Shown here: piece by piece, positions 17,716 through 29,042 of the stretch | How the letters are laid out: every line of letters starts with the position of its first letter | Position numbering within the stretch: position 1 is the first letter of the stretch | Translations under genes and position numbers: made by a program | Notes under the pieces: generated by a model | Told to the model about the DNA's origin: nothing | Database searches by the model: none | Seen by the model: the letters and a program-made list of their open reading frames with translations, nothing else | Virus record (IMG/VR): IMGVR_UViG_3300047157_000137 | Coordinates: 5,681-69,680 of that record | Strand: one strand, 5' to 3' | Source of the DNA: a virus | Length of the DNA stretch: 64,000 nucleotides

Positions 17716-17734
17716 ATTTAATTATTAATGTTAG

Positions 17735-17807
17735 TTGCGGCGGATAGATTCGAACTACCGACCTTCGGGTTATGAGCCCGACGAGCTGACCACTGCTCCA
17801 CGCCGCA
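17735..17807 (-). tRNA. tRNA-Met(CAT), initiator type
   Basis: TGCGGCG/CGCCGCA acceptor stem; D arm GAGC-AGTGGTCA-GCTC; anticodon arm TCGGG-CTCATAA-CCCGA with three G-C pairs; TTCGAAT T loop; CCA not encoded. Confidence 0.95.
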
Positions 17808-18308: not shown

Positions 18309-18542
18309 TTATTTGTTAATTATAGAGTTACCATACATTATATCTTGAGCAGATAAATTGTAAGTTTTTATGTCACAGTATACTGATATATCAGATATTT
18401 GACTTACAGTTAAGTCATACCATGATGTTTCAGACATAAGTGCATACTTAAGTCTTTTAGCGCTAGAATATTTTCTAGCATTTGTTTGCAGTGACAACTT
18501 AAAACCTGGTTTTAGTCTGTCATAAATTGTTTTTAATCTCAT
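18309..18542 (-). CDS. Hypothetical protein
   Basis: ATG 6 nt after the class I motif. Confidence 0.65.
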   Translation of the reverse strand: MRLKTIYDRLKPGFKLSLQTNARKYSSAKRLKYALMSETSWYDLTVSQISDISVYCDIKTYNLSAQDIMYGNSIINK

Positions 18543-18548
18543 ATTTAT

Positions 18549-18579
18549 ATTATCCGTGTTAATTTGTATTTAGTTTGTA
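18549..18579 (-). promoter_or_regulatory. Class I promoter-like repeat
   Basis: TACAAACTAAATAC-N10-GGATAAT. Confidence 0.8.
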
Positions 18580-18797
18580 AGTTCGTGTGCTTCAAATCTT
18601 TGTCTTTCTTTGTCTATTATATCACCAATGTGATCTTGCATTGCTACAATATCCATCGCTAATAGTTGTAGTTCAGCTAAACCATTAACTTCATGAACAC
18701 TCATGTATTCATTTAAGTCATTGTTTTGAAGAGCGATAACACAGTCTTCTAAATCTCTTGCAGTATTTTCAAACCTGCAATAACTCATATTTGCCAT
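18570..18797 (-). CDS. Phage hypothetical protein (NMSYCRFENT motif)
   Basis: MANMSYCRFENTARDLEDC N-terminus. Confidence 0.65.
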   Translation of the reverse strand: MANMSYCRFENTARDLEDCVIALQNNDLNEYMSVHEVNGLAELQLLAMDIVAMQDHIGDIIDKERQRFEAHELTN

Positions 18798-18817
18798 ATT
18801 TAATTATTTAATGTTAG

Positions 18818-18914
18818 TGGAAGTGGGCGGAGTCGAACCGCCGTTATCTTAATCAGTTGTTTGCCATAAGCTATTCGGTGCGTTACTGTTTCAAGATCTT
18901 ACCTTATCACTCCC
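18818..18914 (-). ncRNA. tmRNA-like tRNA domain (alanine identity) without an internal mRNA-like domain
   Basis: GGGAGTG/CACTTCC-A acceptor stem with G3:U70; unpaired D loop ATAAGGTAAGA; helices TCTTGA/TTAAGA and CAGT/ACTG; T arm GGCGG-TTCGACT-CCGCC. Confidence 0.7.
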
Positions 18915-19169
18915 TTATGAGAGACACCAGTTGTGGACAGGTAGTTAACTAGTATTATCATTTATCCACACTTTCTGTTTTGACGCACCACGATCGAGCT
19001 AATGCCCCGGTAATCGCCTAACGTGACCTGTATGCCGCCGTCTCTCTGCCAGCTATTCACTTATGTGTAAGTTAGTGTGACGCAATATGTAATACACTTC
19101 CTGGTTCGGCACCACATACATATATTGTCTCCTATTTCTTACCTGTTAAGCTACTCGTCTGGCTACTTT
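18915..19169 (-). ncRNA. Structured non-coding RNA directly upstream of the tRNA-like domain
   Basis: ORF-free and GC-richer than its flanks; helices GAGAGAC/GTCTCTC, TGTGGATA/TGTCCACA, CACG/CGTG, CAATAT..GTA/TACATATTG, TGGT/ACCA. Confidence 0.6.
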
Positions 19170-19358
19170 TTACTTTCTACGCCAAGATCTGTGAACTCTG
19201 TCACTTAGTTCTTGACTTACTATTTGTACTTCTAGTACTTGTTTGTTTGCAATAATAGGAATATAACTATATTGCTTTGTTTCGCTACAGTTTACACAGG
19301 TTGAATAACCTAGTGCTAGTCTGCCTGCTGGTATTTTATTGTTACATTTACATTTCAT
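19170..19358 (-). CDS. DksA/TraR-like C4 zinc-finger protein
   Basis: CKC...IPAGRLALGYSTCVNC resembles the DksA/TraR finger (IPxxRL...CxxC). Confidence 0.6.
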   Translation of the reverse strand: MKCKCNNKIPAGRLALGYSTCVNCSETKQYSYIPIIANKQVLEVQIVSQELSDRVHRSWRRK

Positions 19359-19363
19359 ATTAT

Positions 19364-19394
19364 ATTATCCAATTATGTTTGTATTTAGTTTGTA
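19364..19394 (-). promoter_or_regulatory. Class I promoter-like repeat
   Basis: TACAAACTAAATAC-N10-GGATAAT; ATG 5 nt downstream. Confidence 0.8.
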
Positions 19395-19480
19395 AATTAT
19401 AACGTCTGTAATACTCTACTTCAAGCCTTTCAGCTTCATACTTAGTTATTTTAAGTAGTTTAACATGCTTATGTCTTCTT

Positions 19481-19690
19481 TTACTCTTCATACTCTTCTA
19501 ATCCTGTATGTAATTTTTCTATTGTAGCACACATAATCATGTGCATTAGTTGATTATATTCATCACCATTTAGCTTGTCGTGATCTAAATCTGATCCGTC
19601 AATAGCCCACTGAACAGAATCATATAATGTTTCTTTGATGTAAGAGACTTGAGCGTCTGCTATTTCATCTATAATTTTCATTTTACTCAT
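19481..19690 (-). CDS. Hypothetical acidic protein
   Basis: ORF in the early operon. Confidence 0.6.
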   Translation of the reverse strand: MSKMKIIDEIADAQVSYIKETLYDSVQWAIDGSDLDHDKLNGDEYNQLMHMIMCATIEKLHTGLEEYEE

Positions 19691-21245: not shown

Positions 21246-21288
21246 TTGTCACAGTGTGAATCGAACACACTTGTATACCATAGTGACA
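21246..21288 (-). ncRNA. tRNA minihelix-like element (acceptor stem plus T arm only)
   Basis: TGTCAC/GTGACA-A stem, short linker, GTGTG-TTCGATT-CACAC T arm; followed by CTAA like the two other tRNA-like elements. Confidence 0.5.
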
Positions 21289-26612: not shown

Positions 26613-29042
26613 ATGGCTAATTTATCTAATATAAATAATAAACTCGTTTTAACAACAGACGGAGCCGCATTAATCAATCAAGGTAGTGTTGATTATGGAA
26701 CTGCTAAACTACAAGTTTCTGGAAGTGGGTCAACAGGTACCATTACCTGGAGAAATGATGGTGGTAGAAAAACTGGTTATTTATATAGTGATTCAGCTGG
26801 TGTAGCAATTTATTCCACAGCTCTTGCTAACGCTGGTATTTATCTAGCAGATAATTTACAAATAGATTTTAGAGTTAACGGTTCACAACGAATGATTATT
26901 CTAGAATCAGGCAACGTAGGAATAGCAGCGACACCAGGAACTTATCTTTCAAGTATTAGAGCATTAAGAATTGGTCAAGGTGCAAGTTTTAGCGCTTTTA
27001 CAAATTCATTAAATACTTATGTAAGTAGTAATGTTAGAGTAGATGCAACTGGAACTAATAAAGCTATTGTAACTGGGGAATCAGCACAATATAGACAATC
27101 AGACGGATTACATATTTGGTATAATGCTGCAAGTGTATCAGCAGGAGCAACTTCTACTTTAACAGAAAGAATGCGTATAGACAGTTCTGGAATTGTTAAT
27201 ATTGGAACTGCAACAGGAACACAGCCGTCTTATTTTAATAGTTACTTAAATGTTCAAAATAACGCATCAACATCAAACCACGCTTCTATAACAATAACTT
27301 CTGGAAGTTCTGGTTATGCAGGACTGCATTTTGGTGATTCTGATAATGGACGTATTGGTCAAGTAGCTTATAACAATAGTAATAATTCTTTACTTTTTAC
27401 GGCTAACAATAGTACAAGAATGACCATAGACAGTTCTGGAAACGTAGGAGTTGGAGTAACACCTTTTGCACATACATTAGGGACGTCTGCTTCATTGGAT
27501 TTAAAAGGTAATGGTGGAATATGGGGTTATGCTGGTGCAACTTATGTAAATTCAAACGCTTATTATAATCTCGGATGGAAATATAAAACAACAGCTCCAG
27601 CAGCAGTTTTACAAGTAGGTGGTTCATCACAAGAATTAACTTTTAGACAAGCAGTAAGCGGAACAGCGGGTAATGCTATAACATATACTCAACCTTTTAC
27701 AATAAATACTTCAGGAAACGTAGGAATTGGAGGAGGTGCAATAGAGGGTAAATTAAGTATAGATTATACTGCTGCTGAACTACCAACATCAGGAACTACA
27801 TCTAATTCTGCTATACAAGTAACAAGCAGTTTAGGTAACCAATTAAATTTAGGTTTAAATACAGTTAGTGGTGATTATGGAGCATATATTCAAGCAAGTG
27901 ATAATAATTTAGCTGTACCATATCCTTTAAACTTACAACCAAACGGAGGAAATGTAGGTATAGGGACGACTTCGCCTGAGTTTAAATTAGACGTAAAATC
28001 AAACAGTGATACAGCACCTAGTGCATATTTAAGAGGTGGTAAATCTTCACAAGGAGAAATACAAAATACAGGTTTAATTGTAGGTACTCAAACAGATATG
28101 GCAGCTGGTGATTATCAGGGTATAAGTTTTACTGGATATACAAGTGTAAGTGCTATAAGAAGAGGTAGAGCTGCAATTGGTGTAGAAGCTGTAAATGGCC
28201 CCGGTAAAATGGATTTAGTATTTATGGCTAAACATCAAGATGATGGTTCTCAATTATCTGCTGATGATACAAAGATGATCATCAAGGGCTCTCTTACAAC
28301 TAGTAAACAAAGCAGGGTGGGTATTGGTTATGATTTTGTTGCAAGCAAGATTCACGAGCCAGAAGGAACTAATTCTTTAGATGTTTACGGAACTGGATTT
28401 TTTGGCTACCAAGATTTTAGAGATCATGATACATACCCACCTCAGAAAGTATTAGTTCTTAGAGGTGCTCCAGCTAGTGGAGCTTATGCTCAAAGTAGAT
28501 TTAATTGGTACACAAAAAGTGGTACAACTTCTAATGGAATAGCTGAAATTCAAATAAAAACTCAATACGGAACCGATGCTGAGTCAGGTATAAAGTTTTC
28601 ATTTGGAAGTGGTGGTGAATTTTACGCTTCTGAAGGAATTTTATTAGGCGGAACTGGTAGTTCAAATAAATTAGATTTTTATCAAAGCGGATCATGGGTC
28701 CCAAGTGTAACATCAAGTGGTGGTGCAGGGTTTCCTGCTTATTCATCTATAGGTTACTTTCAAAGAGTTGGAAAAGTTGTTACAGTATCTTTTGAATTTA
28801 CAATAAGTAATTTAGGTACAGCATCAGGAACTGTTATAATAAACAATTTACCTGTAGCTATAGCAAGTGGTAATGGTGTTAAAACTGTTGTAGGTTATGG
28901 AAACATTCCAACAATAGGCCAGTCACTTTCTATTTATCATTACACTGCTCAAAACCAAATAGGTATGAATAAATATGATGGTTCTTTTGCAGGAACTACT
29001 TATACAACAAGAGGAACTGTAACTTATTGGGCAGAACTTTAA
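26613..29042 (+). CDS. Tail fibre protein
   Basis: Repeated RMxIDSSGNVGIG modules; C-terminal YQSGSWVP...GYFQRVGKVVTV receptor-binding-type domain. Confidence 0.85.
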   Translation: MANLSNINNKLVLTTDGAALINQGSVDYGTAKLQVSGSGSTGTITWRNDGGRKTGYLYSDSAGVAIYSTALANAGIYLADNLQIDFRVNGSQRMIILESGNVGIAATPGTYLSSIRALRIGQGASFSAFTNSLNTYVSSNVRVDATGTNKAIVTGESAQYRQSDGLHIWYNAASVSAGATSTLTERMRIDSSGIVNIGTATGTQPSYFNSYLNVQNNASTSNHASITITSGSSGYAGLHFGDSDNGRIGQVAYNNSNNSLLFTANNSTRMTIDSSGNVGVGVTPFAHTLGTSASLDLKGNGGIWGYAGATYVNSNAYYNLGWKYKTTAPAAVLQVGGSSQELTFRQAVSGTAGNAITYTQPFTINTSGNVGIGGGAIEGKLSIDYTAAELPTSGTTSNSAIQVTSSLGNQLNLGLNTVSGDYGAYIQASDNNLAVPYPLNLQPNGGNVGIGTTSPEFKLDVKSNSDTAPSAYLRGGKSSQGEIQNTGLIVGTQTDMAAGDYQGISFTGYTSVSAIRRGRAAIGVEAVNGPGKMDLVFMAKHQDDGSQLSADDTKMIIKGSLTTSKQSRVGIGYDFVASKIHEPEGTNSLDVYGTGFFGYQDFRDHDTYPPQKVLVLRGAPASGAYAQSRFNWYTKSGTTSNGIAEIQIKTQYGTDAESGIKFSFGSGGEFYASEGILLGGTGSSNKLDFYQSGSWVPSVTSSGGAGFPAYSSIGYFQRVGKVVTVSFEFTISNLGTASGTVIINNLPVAIASGNGVKTVVGYGNIPTIGQSLSIYHYTAQNQIGMNKYDGSFAGTTYTTRGTVTYWAEL

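What the first reader, a model, noticed from the sequence alone, without database searches (positions are those of the whole stretch)
18818..19169. Structured RNA ending in a minimal tmRNA-like alanine acceptor; possible new two-part tmRNA or SmpB decoy
Seen (minus strand): 18914-18818 folds as GGGAGTG/CACTTCC-A (G3:U70, A73), an unpaired D loop ATAAGGTAAGA, a P2-like helix in place of an anticodon arm, and a canonical T arm. Known: these are the hallmarks of the tmRNA tRNA-like domain that is alanylated and binds SmpB. Here only ~27 nt sit where the ~270-nt pseudoknot/mRNA domain should be. Seen: the adjacent upstream domain is closed by GAGAGAC/GTCTCTC (19046-19040 with 18925-18919) 4 nt before the acceptor 5' end. 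It carries GGTGCGT (18989-18983), exactly complementary to ACGCACC (18883-18877) in the 27-nt loop. Directly after that segment is AAA ACA GAA AGT GTG GAT AAA TGA TAA (KTESVDK, two stops), with the stops in the loop of the TGTGGATA/TGTCCACA hairpin, as in tmRNA helix 5. Inference: after RNase P cleavage the upstream piece could stay docked and supply a non-degradative tag in trans, an arrangement unlike known permuted two-piece tmRNAs; alternatively the 97-nt RNA titrates SmpB or tRNA-targeting defence nucleases.
Basis: partly seen in the sequence, partly recalled or inferred. Interest (0 to 1): 0.9.

Follow-up and report, generated by a model that had tools for sequence, protein, structure and literature searches.

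The report
Tag-less phage mini-tmRNA with RNA neighbours
This marine phage encodes only the alanine-accepting, tRNA-shaped head of the bacterial ribosome-rescue RNA (tmRNA), placed just after a separate conserved knotted RNA; it most likely interferes with the host's ribosome rescue and is not a new two-part tmRNA.

Summary
The sequence features are real. Minus strand 18914-18818 is a 97-nt tmRNA tRNA-like domain (TLD): Rfam tmRNA 35.7 bits, below the cut-off of 47, with about 300 core positions missing. ARAGORN calls nothing there. It belongs to a large phage family: at least 120 viral contigs and 83 distinct 63-143-nt forms. The acceptor and T-arm frame is conserved (G3:U70 in 81 of 83) while the interior is swapped freely, giving 52 insert clusters.

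The upstream domain (19046-18919) is a genuine conserved pseudoknotted RNA. It has 18 distinct versions, 90% of cells paired against 35-47% in slid controls, and 9 compensatory pairs.

The two-part tmRNA reading fails:
- The 7-nt "docking" complement arises in 14% of shuffles and is absent in 5 of 7 loci with the same hairpin.
- One relative breaks it without compensation.
- The KTESVDK frame and its stops are not kept.
- Only 18 of 83 mini-TLDs have this domain upstream.

The closest known thing is the TLD-only tmRNA of mycobacteriophage DS6A, thought to titrate SmpB (PMC4131195). This scan met the same flavobacterial-phage family before on other DNA (e1-3474621, e1-3428774). I class it as a new variant of a known kind.

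The parts
18818..18914 (-). 97-nt tag-less mini-tmRNA (TLD). Acceptor 5' strand 18908-18914; D-loop analogue 18898-18907; P2-like helix 18891-18897 with 18846-18852; portable insert 'module f' 18853-18890; T arm 18826-18842; acceptor 3' strand 18819-18825; discriminator A 18818. The trailer is CTA (18815-18817), so no CCA is encoded.
   Evidence: RF00023 35.7 bits, models 1-374 with 300 positions skipped; R1 68.9 bits; MFE fold shows acceptor, P2 and T arm.
18915..18918 (-). 4-nt linker ATAA between the upstream domain and the TLD 5' end. This is the inferred RNase P cleavage site.
   Evidence: Linkers of 2-4 nt occur in 22 of 26 distinct contexts. Cleavage itself is inferred, not shown.
18919..19046 (-). 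D2, a conserved pseudoknotted RNA domain. P1 is 19035-19046 with 18919-18930. Pseudoknot stem S2 is 19027-19031 with 18937-18941. Hairpin S1 is 18966-18970 with 18932-18936. The S1 loop ATAAATGATAATACTAGTTAACTA is conserved. The variable hairpin 'module B' is 18982-19018.
   Evidence: 90.4% paired, 9 pairs with changes on both sides, S2 pair AU 8/UA 5/UG 5; R2 143.9 bits here, 36 hits in 160 sources.
19048..19163 (-). D1, a further structured RNA scaffold. Its closing helix is GCCAG/CTGGC, it has a conserved ACGAGTAGCTTAA...AAGTGAATAGC frame, and its interior varies.
   Evidence: Read. The frame recurs in L003-L006, L306 and L317. No covariation test was run.
19170..19358 (-). Upstream 62-aa ORF with two CxxC-like pairs, ending SWRRK*. 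Its homologue directly precedes the RNA array or the TLD in many relatives.
   Evidence: upstream flanks ending ...TGGCGNCGTAAATAA. No Pfam or PHROG family was found.

Best explanation
The 352-nt gap between two early genes of this 69.7-kb marine flavobacterial-type podophage holds three structured RNAs in a row on the minus strand: D1, D2 and a 97-nt mini-tmRNA.

Shown:
- The 97-nt RNA is homologous to the tRNA-like domain of tmRNA. It has the acceptor stem with G3:U70 and A73, a D-loop analogue with no D stem, a short P2-like helix and a T arm.
- It lacks the pseudoknots and a conserved tag frame.
- Its frame is conserved in well over 100 phage contigs, while the interior is a swappable hairpin module.

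Inferred:
- The array is transcribed with the early genes.
- RNase P cuts at the TLD 5' end, which also releases D2 as a separate stable RNA.
- The 3' trailer is trimmed and CCA is added.
- Host AlaRS charges the TLD.
- The TLD binds host SmpB (the phage has no smpB) and EF-Tu.
- With no message to resume on, it acts as a competitor of host tmRNA. It either titrates SmpB or enters stalled ribosomes unproductively. Phage-infected cells would then tag and degrade fewer stalled products, or rescue ribosomes without tagging.

D2 is an independent conserved pseudoknot RNA of unknown target. Its 3' end is defined by the tRNA-like element behind it. It is not a tag template.
For: TLD identity:
- RF00023 aligns both ends of its model to 18914-18815 at 35.7 bits, E 1.7e-12 and 2.8e-14.
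- No other Rfam family matches 18500-19500 at E up to 10, apart from a 14.5-bit permuted-tmRNA hit.

Family:
- These give 104 distinct sequences, 83 of them mini forms.
- All 12 modelled pairs are 100% paired.
- Pair 4:69 is CG 59/AU 18/GC 6, while 3:70 stays GU in 81 of 83.
- In loci fetched without any TLD pattern, R1 finds 14 TLDs in 12 of 22 sigma-gene loci, plus the window.
- By my reading, 24 of 26 such pattern-independent TLDs have G3:U70, 1 has A:U and 1 has G:C.

Link to true tmRNA:
- The same pattern also retrieves 243-408-nt phage tmRNAs with proper tags, for example ANKNQFALAA on a GGGCGTG/CACGTCC acceptor.

No tag:
- ARAGORN of the 83 mini forms a tmRNA.
- The window's loop is a portable module found in four contexts.

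Other points:
- The phage has no smpB and no integrase.
- Precedent: the DS6A TLD-only tmRNA. [quoted passage not shown]
- Expression hint: RNA-library contigs cover the array. One 389-nt contig spans 18817-19202. In one metatranscriptome, D2 contigs have depth 211-481 against 4-64 for flanking coding contigs.
Against: - No experiment or raw-read end mapping shows processing, CCA addition, alanylation or SmpB binding. The RNA evidence is contigs only, which the tool itself says cannot rank expression or show ends. Contig breaks at 18817/18818 may simply reflect branching at a sequence shared by many phages.
- U70 and full 7-bp pairing were partly forced by my retrieval pattern and filter. The 81 of 83 figure therefore only excludes A3:U70.
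- Exceptions exist: A3:U70 in L004 and L045, and G3:C70 with A1:U72 in L311.
- If SmpB titration were the whole job, the interior should decay to nothing. Instead it carries elaborate modules that are exchanged between scaffolds. This fits a scaffold or cargo role better.
- The score is below Rfam's gathering cut-off.
Confidence: 0.6

Rival explanations
1. Scaffold or processing handle. The tRNA-like frame mainly serves as an RNase P/RNase Z/CCA-enzyme entry point. It cuts the early transcript, defines the 3' end of the RNA in front of it (D2), and stabilises and displays the hairpin module in its own loop, much like laboratory tRNA scaffolds. Alanylation and SmpB are incidental.
For: - There are 52 insert clusters on 83 frames, and the same inserts sit on both GGGAGTG and GGGCGTG frames.
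- The same modules also sit in D2's hairpin, in D1-like scaffolds, in non-alanine minihelices and on their own.
- D2 is followed by a tRNA-like element in 26 of 26 distinct contexts, and one of these is a non-alanine minihelix.
- The same genomes hold non-alanine minihelices with the same ACTAA trailer, for example near window position 21270.
- 71 of 83 inserts are predicted to be closed by a helix next to the T stem.
Against: - The G3:U70 wobble is kept while the neighbouring pair covaries among three Watson-Crick types.
- The tmRNA-specific D-loop analogue (A8, GG, T) is nearly invariant.
- A pure processing handle needs neither feature.
- Some members have almost no insert (47 nt in L180).
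Confidence: 0.22
2. Decoy for host defence proteins that recognise tRNA or tmRNA shapes, for example nucleases aimed at acceptor stems or systems with SmpB-like domains, rather than for SmpB itself.
For: - The interior is hypervariable on a fixed frame, a pattern often seen in arms races.
- The family is phage-borne. The exact 18-mer of the common 5' end gave only 5 chance matches in 185,579 genomes, and none is an R1 TLD.
- SmpB-like domains are predicted in CoCoNuT defence systems (PMC10542128, passages read).
Against: No defence system is linked to this phage group by any search. The idea rests on analogy only.
Confidence: 0.1
3. One reading: after RNase P cleavage, D2 stays docked to the TLD loop through GGTGCGT/ACGCACC and supplies the tag KTESVDK in trans.
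For: - The exact 7-nt complement exists.
- L100 keeps an 8-nt complement (GTGCGTTA/TAACGCAC) with both modules present.
- Module B lies within 200 nt upstream of the 3 distinct alanine-type TLDs with module f whose upstream sequence could be read (window, L100, L135/L323).
- D2 sits 2-4 nt from a TLD in 22 of 26 contexts.
Against: - The complement is at chance level: 715 of 5000 shuffles.
- 5 of 7 loci with module B have no complementary loop.
- L135 breaks the pairing, leaving 5 bp, with no compensation.
- Module f keeps AACGCAC where no module B is near (L306, L310, L318, L317, L329).
- The frame and stop shift in L105, L110, L180 and the L030 group, and variation follows stem pairing rather than codon position.
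- R2 finds nothing in the loci that hold full-length phage tmRNAs.
- A tag template not tied to the TLD has no known way into the mRNA channel (established mechanism, recalled).
Confidence: 0.03
4. A working micro-tmRNA whose own loop encodes a tiny tag: GCA AAC AAC TGA, that is (A)ANN.
For: - The loop reads ATG GCA AAC AAC TGA. L100 reads GCA AAC AAC TGT GAC GCT TAA.
- It resembles the start of the tag in the 243-nt phage tmRNA of L048, which reads GCA AAC AAG.
- Two-residue tags are reported in real tmRNAs (PMC11915505).
Against: - The same module, with the same GCAAACAACTG, occurs outside any TLD: in D2's hairpin, alone after an ORF, and in a D1-like scaffold.
- Most family members carry unrelated inserts.
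- ARAGORN finds no tag.
Confidence: 0.03
5. A leftover of integration into the host ssrA gene (attP-like fragment).
For: tmRNA genes are common integration sites, and ssrA fragments occur in prophages (PMC9004378).
Against: - No integrase is present in the complete 69.7-kb record.
- Both halves of the TLD are present and pair perfectly.
- The frame is conserved with covariation across more than 100 contigs.
- It is not found in bacterial genomes.
Confidence: 0.02

Closest known systems
TLD-only (CDS-less) tmRNA of mycobacteriophage DS6A (Mao et al. 2009, as cited in PMC4131195 and PMC11915505; the 2009 paper itself is not held)
   Same: [quoted passage not shown] The proposed action is inhibition of host tmRNA by titrating SmpB.
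   Different: - DS6A is a single actinobacteriophage example of about 65-80 nt.
- Here there is a large family in marine flavobacterial-type podophages.
- The P2-like helix carries exchangeable structured modules, for a total of 63-185 nt.
- The TLD is usually embedded in an array with other structured RNAs.
- No sequence comparison with DS6A was run.
CDS-less mitochondrial (Rfam RF02544) and about 65-bp plastid tmRNAs (PMC11915505; Jacob et al. 2004, cited there)
   Same: tmRNA is reduced to its alanine-accepting tRNA-like part, with no tag reading frame.
   Different: Those are organelle genes that co-occur with an imported SmpB and presumably serve the organelle. This one is a viral gene with no smpB and a variable interior.
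Canonical one-piece tmRNA (Rfam RF00023)
   Same: It shares the acceptor stem with G3:U70 and A73, the D-loop analogue, the start of P2 and the T arm. Both ends of the model align. Related viral contigs hold full tmRNAs with the same acceptor.
   Different: About 300 model positions are missing, including the pseudoknots, the tag ORF and helix 5. The score of 35.7 bits is below the cut-off of 47, and ARAGORN does not call it.
Circularly permuted two-piece tmRNA (Rfam RF01849, RF04321)
   Same: This is the only known way in which a tmRNA works as two RNA pieces made from one precursor.
   Different: In those, the two pieces are held together by the acceptor and P2 helices. Here the acceptor stem closes within one 97-nt piece, and the upstream domain closes on itself. 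RF04321 scores only 14.5 bits (E 1.6), at a shifted place.
Small stable RNAs and folded spacers of phage tRNA clusters, such as T4 RNAC/RNAD (recalled, not checked in a call)
   Same: These are structured non-coding RNAs co-transcribed with tRNA-like elements and released by tRNA-processing enzymes.
   Different: D2 matches no Rfam family. It has a covariation-supported pseudoknot and a fixed position 2-4 nt before an alanine-type TLD.

Membership tests
tmRNA tRNA-like domain | 7-bp acceptor stem with G3:U70 and discriminator A73 | tested here: met
   One search shows the sequence. GU in 81 of 83 family members, with the neighbouring pair covarying.
tmRNA tRNA-like domain | T arm with a TTCGA-type loop, and a D-loop analogue (GA...GG) without a D stem | tested here: met
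   alignment to RF00023. A8, G12, G13 and T14 are at least 90% conserved. fold.
tmRNA (RF00023), full member | Score at or above the Rfam gathering cut-off | tested here: not met
   35.7 bits against a cut-off of 47.
tmRNA (RF00023), full member | Pseudoknots, and a tag reading frame with resume codon and stop | tested here: not met
   300 model positions are skipped. ARAGORN gives no tmRNA call here or in any of the 83 mini forms. The loop is a portable module.
tmRNA, functional | Alanylation by AlaRS, and binding of SmpB and EF-Tu | not testable with these tools
   Inferred only, from G3:U70/A73 and the conserved D-loop analogue.
TLD-only (CDS-less) phage tmRNA, DS6A type | Phage gene consisting of the TLD with no message domain | tested here: met
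   The description of DS6A comes from PMC4131195.
TLD-only (CDS-less) phage tmRNA, DS6A type | Inhibits host trans-translation | not testable with these tools
   Reported for a similar molecule in E. coli (PMC4131195, PMC11915505).
Two-piece tmRNA | Permuted gene in which the acceptor and P2 helices form between two RNA pieces | tested here: not met
   The acceptor stem closes within 18914-18818. RF04321 scores 14.5 bits, E 1.6.
   2 of 7 loci with module B have the complementary loop. L135 breaks the pairing. 715 of 5000 shuffles reach 7 nt.
   the frame or stop is displaced in L105, L110, L180, L014 and the L030 group.
Ordinary tRNA | D arm and anticodon arm; detected by tRNA models | tested here: not met
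   ARAGORN and RF00005 report only tRNA-Met at 17734-17807.

The most novel reading that the evidence does not exclude
The alanine-type tRNA-like frame is a natural display scaffold. Phages of this group use it, together with D1, D2 and the minihelices, to express, stabilise and perhaps deliver to SmpB or the ribosome a rapidly exchanged library of small structured RNA modules. This would be an RNA-based host-takeover or anti-defence toolkit, with D2 as an abundant stable pseudoknot RNA that has its own target.
Probability: 0.2. Interest if true: 0.85.

Novelty: new variant of a known kind. Interest (0 to 1): 0.55.

Why it matters
Tag-less tmRNA heads are known from organelles and from a single mycobacteriophage.

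Here the same idea appears as a large, conserved family in uncultured marine flavobacterial-type phages. This suggests that interference with ribosome rescue is a common early-infection tactic.

The fixed frame with a freely exchanged interior, and the covariation-supported pseudoknot RNA in front of it, give two concrete, undescribed RNA families to test.

I found no paper describing them. The supplementary tables of the tmRNA database paper (PMC11915505) could not be opened and may list viral TLD-only forms.

Tried and rejected
- blastn of the 411-nt region against 50,697 GenBank phages found no match. Megablast of 10 kb hit only the tRNA-Met.
- An exact 27-mer of the TLD 5' part gave 0 viral contigs.
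- blastn of a consensus-like TLD (L119) against GenBank phages gave only T-arm-sized hits in tRNAs.
- R1 on three cultured or assembled relatives (Maribacter phage Panino, Flavobacterium phage elemoF, a Manatee Spring podovirus) gave only weak hits of 23-27 bits. No cultured carrier was found.
None of the 80 loci examined lay next to a T loop.
- The genome contigs 18-mer scan gave 5 matches, none an R1 TLD.
- A search of the window for a target complementary to D2's conserved loop found only the locus itself.
- Pfam and PHROGs gave nothing for the upstream C4 ORF.
- RNA runs: only Logan contigs were available, so ends, strand and level cannot be read. Stretches without cover in X17, X18 and X20 prove nothing.
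- Rejected readings: attP remnant, ordinary tRNA, micro-tag, docked trans-tag. See the rival explanations.
- Rows dropped before counts:
  - Of 133 pattern hits, 7 had no 5' strand within 400 nt.
  - Of 104 distinct sequences, 14 longer than 145 nt were kept apart.
  - 7 of 145 nt or less were excluded as real tRNAs, false 5' ends or odd forms (L050, L124, L113, L095, L059, L068, L117).
  - L093 was kept although ARAGORN calls it tRNA-Gln.
  - L071 was dropped from the D2 alignment because it is cut by the contig end.

Full report
**Where it lies.** The window is part of a 69,680-base IMG/VR virus record rated complete. Its portal protein is 40-50% identical to those of Flavobacterium, Cellulophaga, Maribacter and Tenacibaculum podophages. 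The likely host is therefore a marine member of the Flavobacteriia. The finding sits on the minus strand, in the 352-nt gap between a 62-aa ORF (19358-19170, ending SWRRK*) and a 75-aa ORF (18797-18570).

**The observation.**
- ARAGORN reports only tRNA-Met at 17734-17807. Rfam at gathering thresholds reports the same.
- With permissive thresholds, the Rfam tmRNA model aligns both of its ends to 18914-18815. It skips about 300 internal positions and scores 35.7 bits (cut-off 47; E 1.7e-12 for 1 kb). The only other match is a 14.5-bit permuted-tmRNA hit, E 1.6.
- Folded alone, the 97 nt adopt an acceptor stem, a 7-bp P2-like helix and a T arm (z -2.64).
- The helix encloses 38 nt, not about 27.

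**The tRNA-like domain is a family.**
- A sigma-like protein 5 kb away retrieved 22 related viral loci. Homologues of the RNA region were visible in 9 of them by blastn and by eye.
- These gave 133 hits: 7 without a 5' strand, and 104 distinct sequences.
- Lengths run from 62 to 408 nt. The long ones are true phage tmRNAs with tags, for example 243 nt with ANKNQFALAA.
- 83 are mini forms of 63-143 nt.
- Aligned (A1), the frame is nearly invariant: GGGNGTG, A8, GG-T, AAC, T arm, CACNTCC-A.
- All 12 modelled pairs are paired in all 83. Pair 4:69 is CG 59, AU 18 and GC 6. T-stem pairs 2 and 3 also covary. Pair 3:70 is GU in 81 and AU in 2.
- My pattern fixed U70 and my filter demanded 7 pairs, so this count only speaks against A3:U70.
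- In loci fetched without any TLD pattern, the model R1 finds 14 strong TLDs in 12 of 22 sigma loci, plus the window. It finds 11 more in module-derived loci.
- Reading these, 24 of 26 have G3:U70, one has A:U (L004) and one has G:C (L311).
- The phage has no smpB and no integrase.
- The exact 18-mer of the common 5' end has 5 matches in 185,579 prokaryote genomes, none of them a TLD.

**The interior is swapped freely.**
- The 83 frames carry 52 clusters of inserts. Six of the eight largest clusters (three or more members) sit on both the GGGAGTG and the GGGCGTG frames.
- 71 of 83 inserts are predicted to be closed by a helix next to the T stem.
- The window's own insert ('module f') recurs in several places:
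  - in other TLD loops (L100, L135/L323, L325, L329, and the non-alanine L311);
  - inside the variable hairpin of the upstream domain (L310, L318);
  - alone, right after the ORF stop and with the same ATCTT/AAGAT closing helix (L306);
  - inside a D1-like scaffold (L317).
- Hence GCA AAC AAC TGA in the loop is part of a portable structure, not a tag.

**The upstream domain (D2).**
- Eighteen distinct versions were aligned (A2).
- I proposed three helices: a 12-bp P1, a hairpin S1, and a pseudoknot stem S2 (ACWGG with CCWGT, stacked on S1).
- 90.4% of cells are paired, against 35-47% when partners are slid.
- 9 pairs change on both sides. The central S2 pair is AU 8, UA 5, UG 5.
- RNAalifold independently predicts P1 and S2.
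- The model R2 finds 36 copies in 160 sources. It finds none in the loci that hold full-length phage tmRNAs.
- In 26 distinct contexts, an alanine-type TLD starts 2-4 nt after P1 in 22. One extra hairpin intervenes in 3. In 1 (L017/L110) another module and a non-alanine minihelix follow.
- Conversely, only 18 of 83 mini-TLDs have D2 upstream by the motif test. Two more show only its 3' part, and 3 had short flanks.
- Many TLDs follow the ORF stop directly, or follow other RNA domains.
- So D2 seems to need a tRNA-like element behind it, but the TLD does not need D2.

**The two-part tmRNA model.**
- The 7-nt complement between D2 and the loop arises in 715 of 5000 shuffles of the loop.
- The GGTGCGT-bearing hairpin ('module B') sits in D2 in 7 loci: the window, L100, L105, L110, L122, L180 and L181. 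Only the window and L100 have an ACGCAC loop in the TLD.
- L135 carries module B in a preceding minihelix, but it reads GGTGCGC while the loop is unchanged. This leaves 5 bp, a disruption without compensation.
- Against my reading: modules B and f co-occur in 3 loci, more than the roughly 0.7 I estimate from their frequencies. However, L100 and L135 share an identical TLD, so these are not independent events.
- The frame KTESVDK** becomes KTERADK*, KSADKA*, KQESADKA*, QNRKRYK** or runs on. The alternative frame ...INDNTS* loses its stop in three versions. The changes track stem pairing, not codon position.
- Mechanistically, trans-translation needs the message tied to the TLD through helix 2 (established knowledge, recalled). 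D2 closes on itself.

**Expression.** Only assembled contigs of RNA libraries were available.
- In an oligo-dT library, a 389-nt contig spans 18817-19202, which is the whole array. A second contig abuts it at 18818.
- One metatranscriptome covers only 18953-19168.
- In another, contigs over the D2 core (joined across the variable hairpin) have depths of 480.7 and 211.6, against 4-64 for flanking coding contigs.
- The tool warns that such depths sum related organisms and cannot rank genes. I take this as a weak hint that D2 is an abundant stable RNA.

**What is known.**
- Passages in PMC4131195 list 'Mycobacterium phage DS6A (TLD only)'. They state that a similar molecule, chargeable or not, strongly inhibits tmRNA, perhaps by titrating SmpB.
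- PMC11915505 adds CDS-less mitochondrial and about 65-bp plastid tmRNAs, and two-residue tags.
- The 2009 primary paper is not held.
- Five full-text searches found no description of this flavobacterial-phage family or of D2. Supplements were closed.
- Earlier notes of this scan describe the same family on other DNA (e1-3474621, e1-3428774) and a similar knot before a mini-tRNA (e1-6192078). I saw these only after reaching my reading.

**Verdict.**
- The 97-nt RNA is a tag-less mini-tmRNA. It is a new variant of a known kind, set in a tRNA-punctuated array with at least one further undescribed conserved RNA.
- The most likely mechanism is competition with host tmRNA for SmpB and stalled ribosomes. 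This is inferred by analogy.
- A scaffold or cargo role for the frame is the main rival, and it is the more novel possibility.

Noticed in passing
window 19048-19163 (-): D1 is a third structured RNA scaffold. It has the closing helix GCCAG/CTGGC and an AGTA/GAA internal loop reminiscent of loop E (recalled motif), and its interior is variable. The same frame recurs in L003-L006, L306 and L317, and its interior modules also appear inside TLD loops of relatives (L006/L104, L088).
   Followed up: partly
window about 21246-21288 (-); L002:3258, L003:3132 and others: A conserved tRNA-like minihelix with a non-alanine acceptor (TGTCAC.../...TGTGACA-A) and the T arm GTGTG/TTCGATT/CACAC. It has the same ACTAA trailer as the tRNAs and TLDs.
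   Followed up: partly
window 18940-18958 (-) and the same loop in relatives: The conserved loop of the D2 hairpin holds a palindrome that stays a palindrome when it changes: ACTAGT, TACTAGTA or TTCTAGAA. This suggests loop-loop dimerisation or a dimeric binding partner.
   Followed up: no
window 19170-19358 (-): This 62-aa ORF has C3/C5 and C21/C24 and a basic tail SWRRK. It directly precedes the RNA array or the TLD in many relatives. No Pfam or PHROG family was found.
   Followed up: partly
L186/L188 (Maribacter phage Panino, record 27557-27889): The annotated tmRNA overlaps tRNA-Asp and tRNA-Thr calls. A weak R1 hit at 27560-27648 ends in a T arm plus CACCTCCA. About 40 nt later comes a tmRNA-like 5' end (GGGGGTGATTGGATTTGACAG). 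This could be a tandem or a permuted ssrA.
   Followed up: no
L311:777-875; L004:5185-5264: These family members have lost the alanine mark: A1:U72 with G3:C70 and discriminator T in L311, and A3:U70 in L004 and L045. The rest of the frame is kept.
   Followed up: no
L004:5185-5530: Two mini-tmRNAs sit back to back, 3 nt apart. They are followed by a stand-alone module and a tRNA-Met.
   Followed up: no
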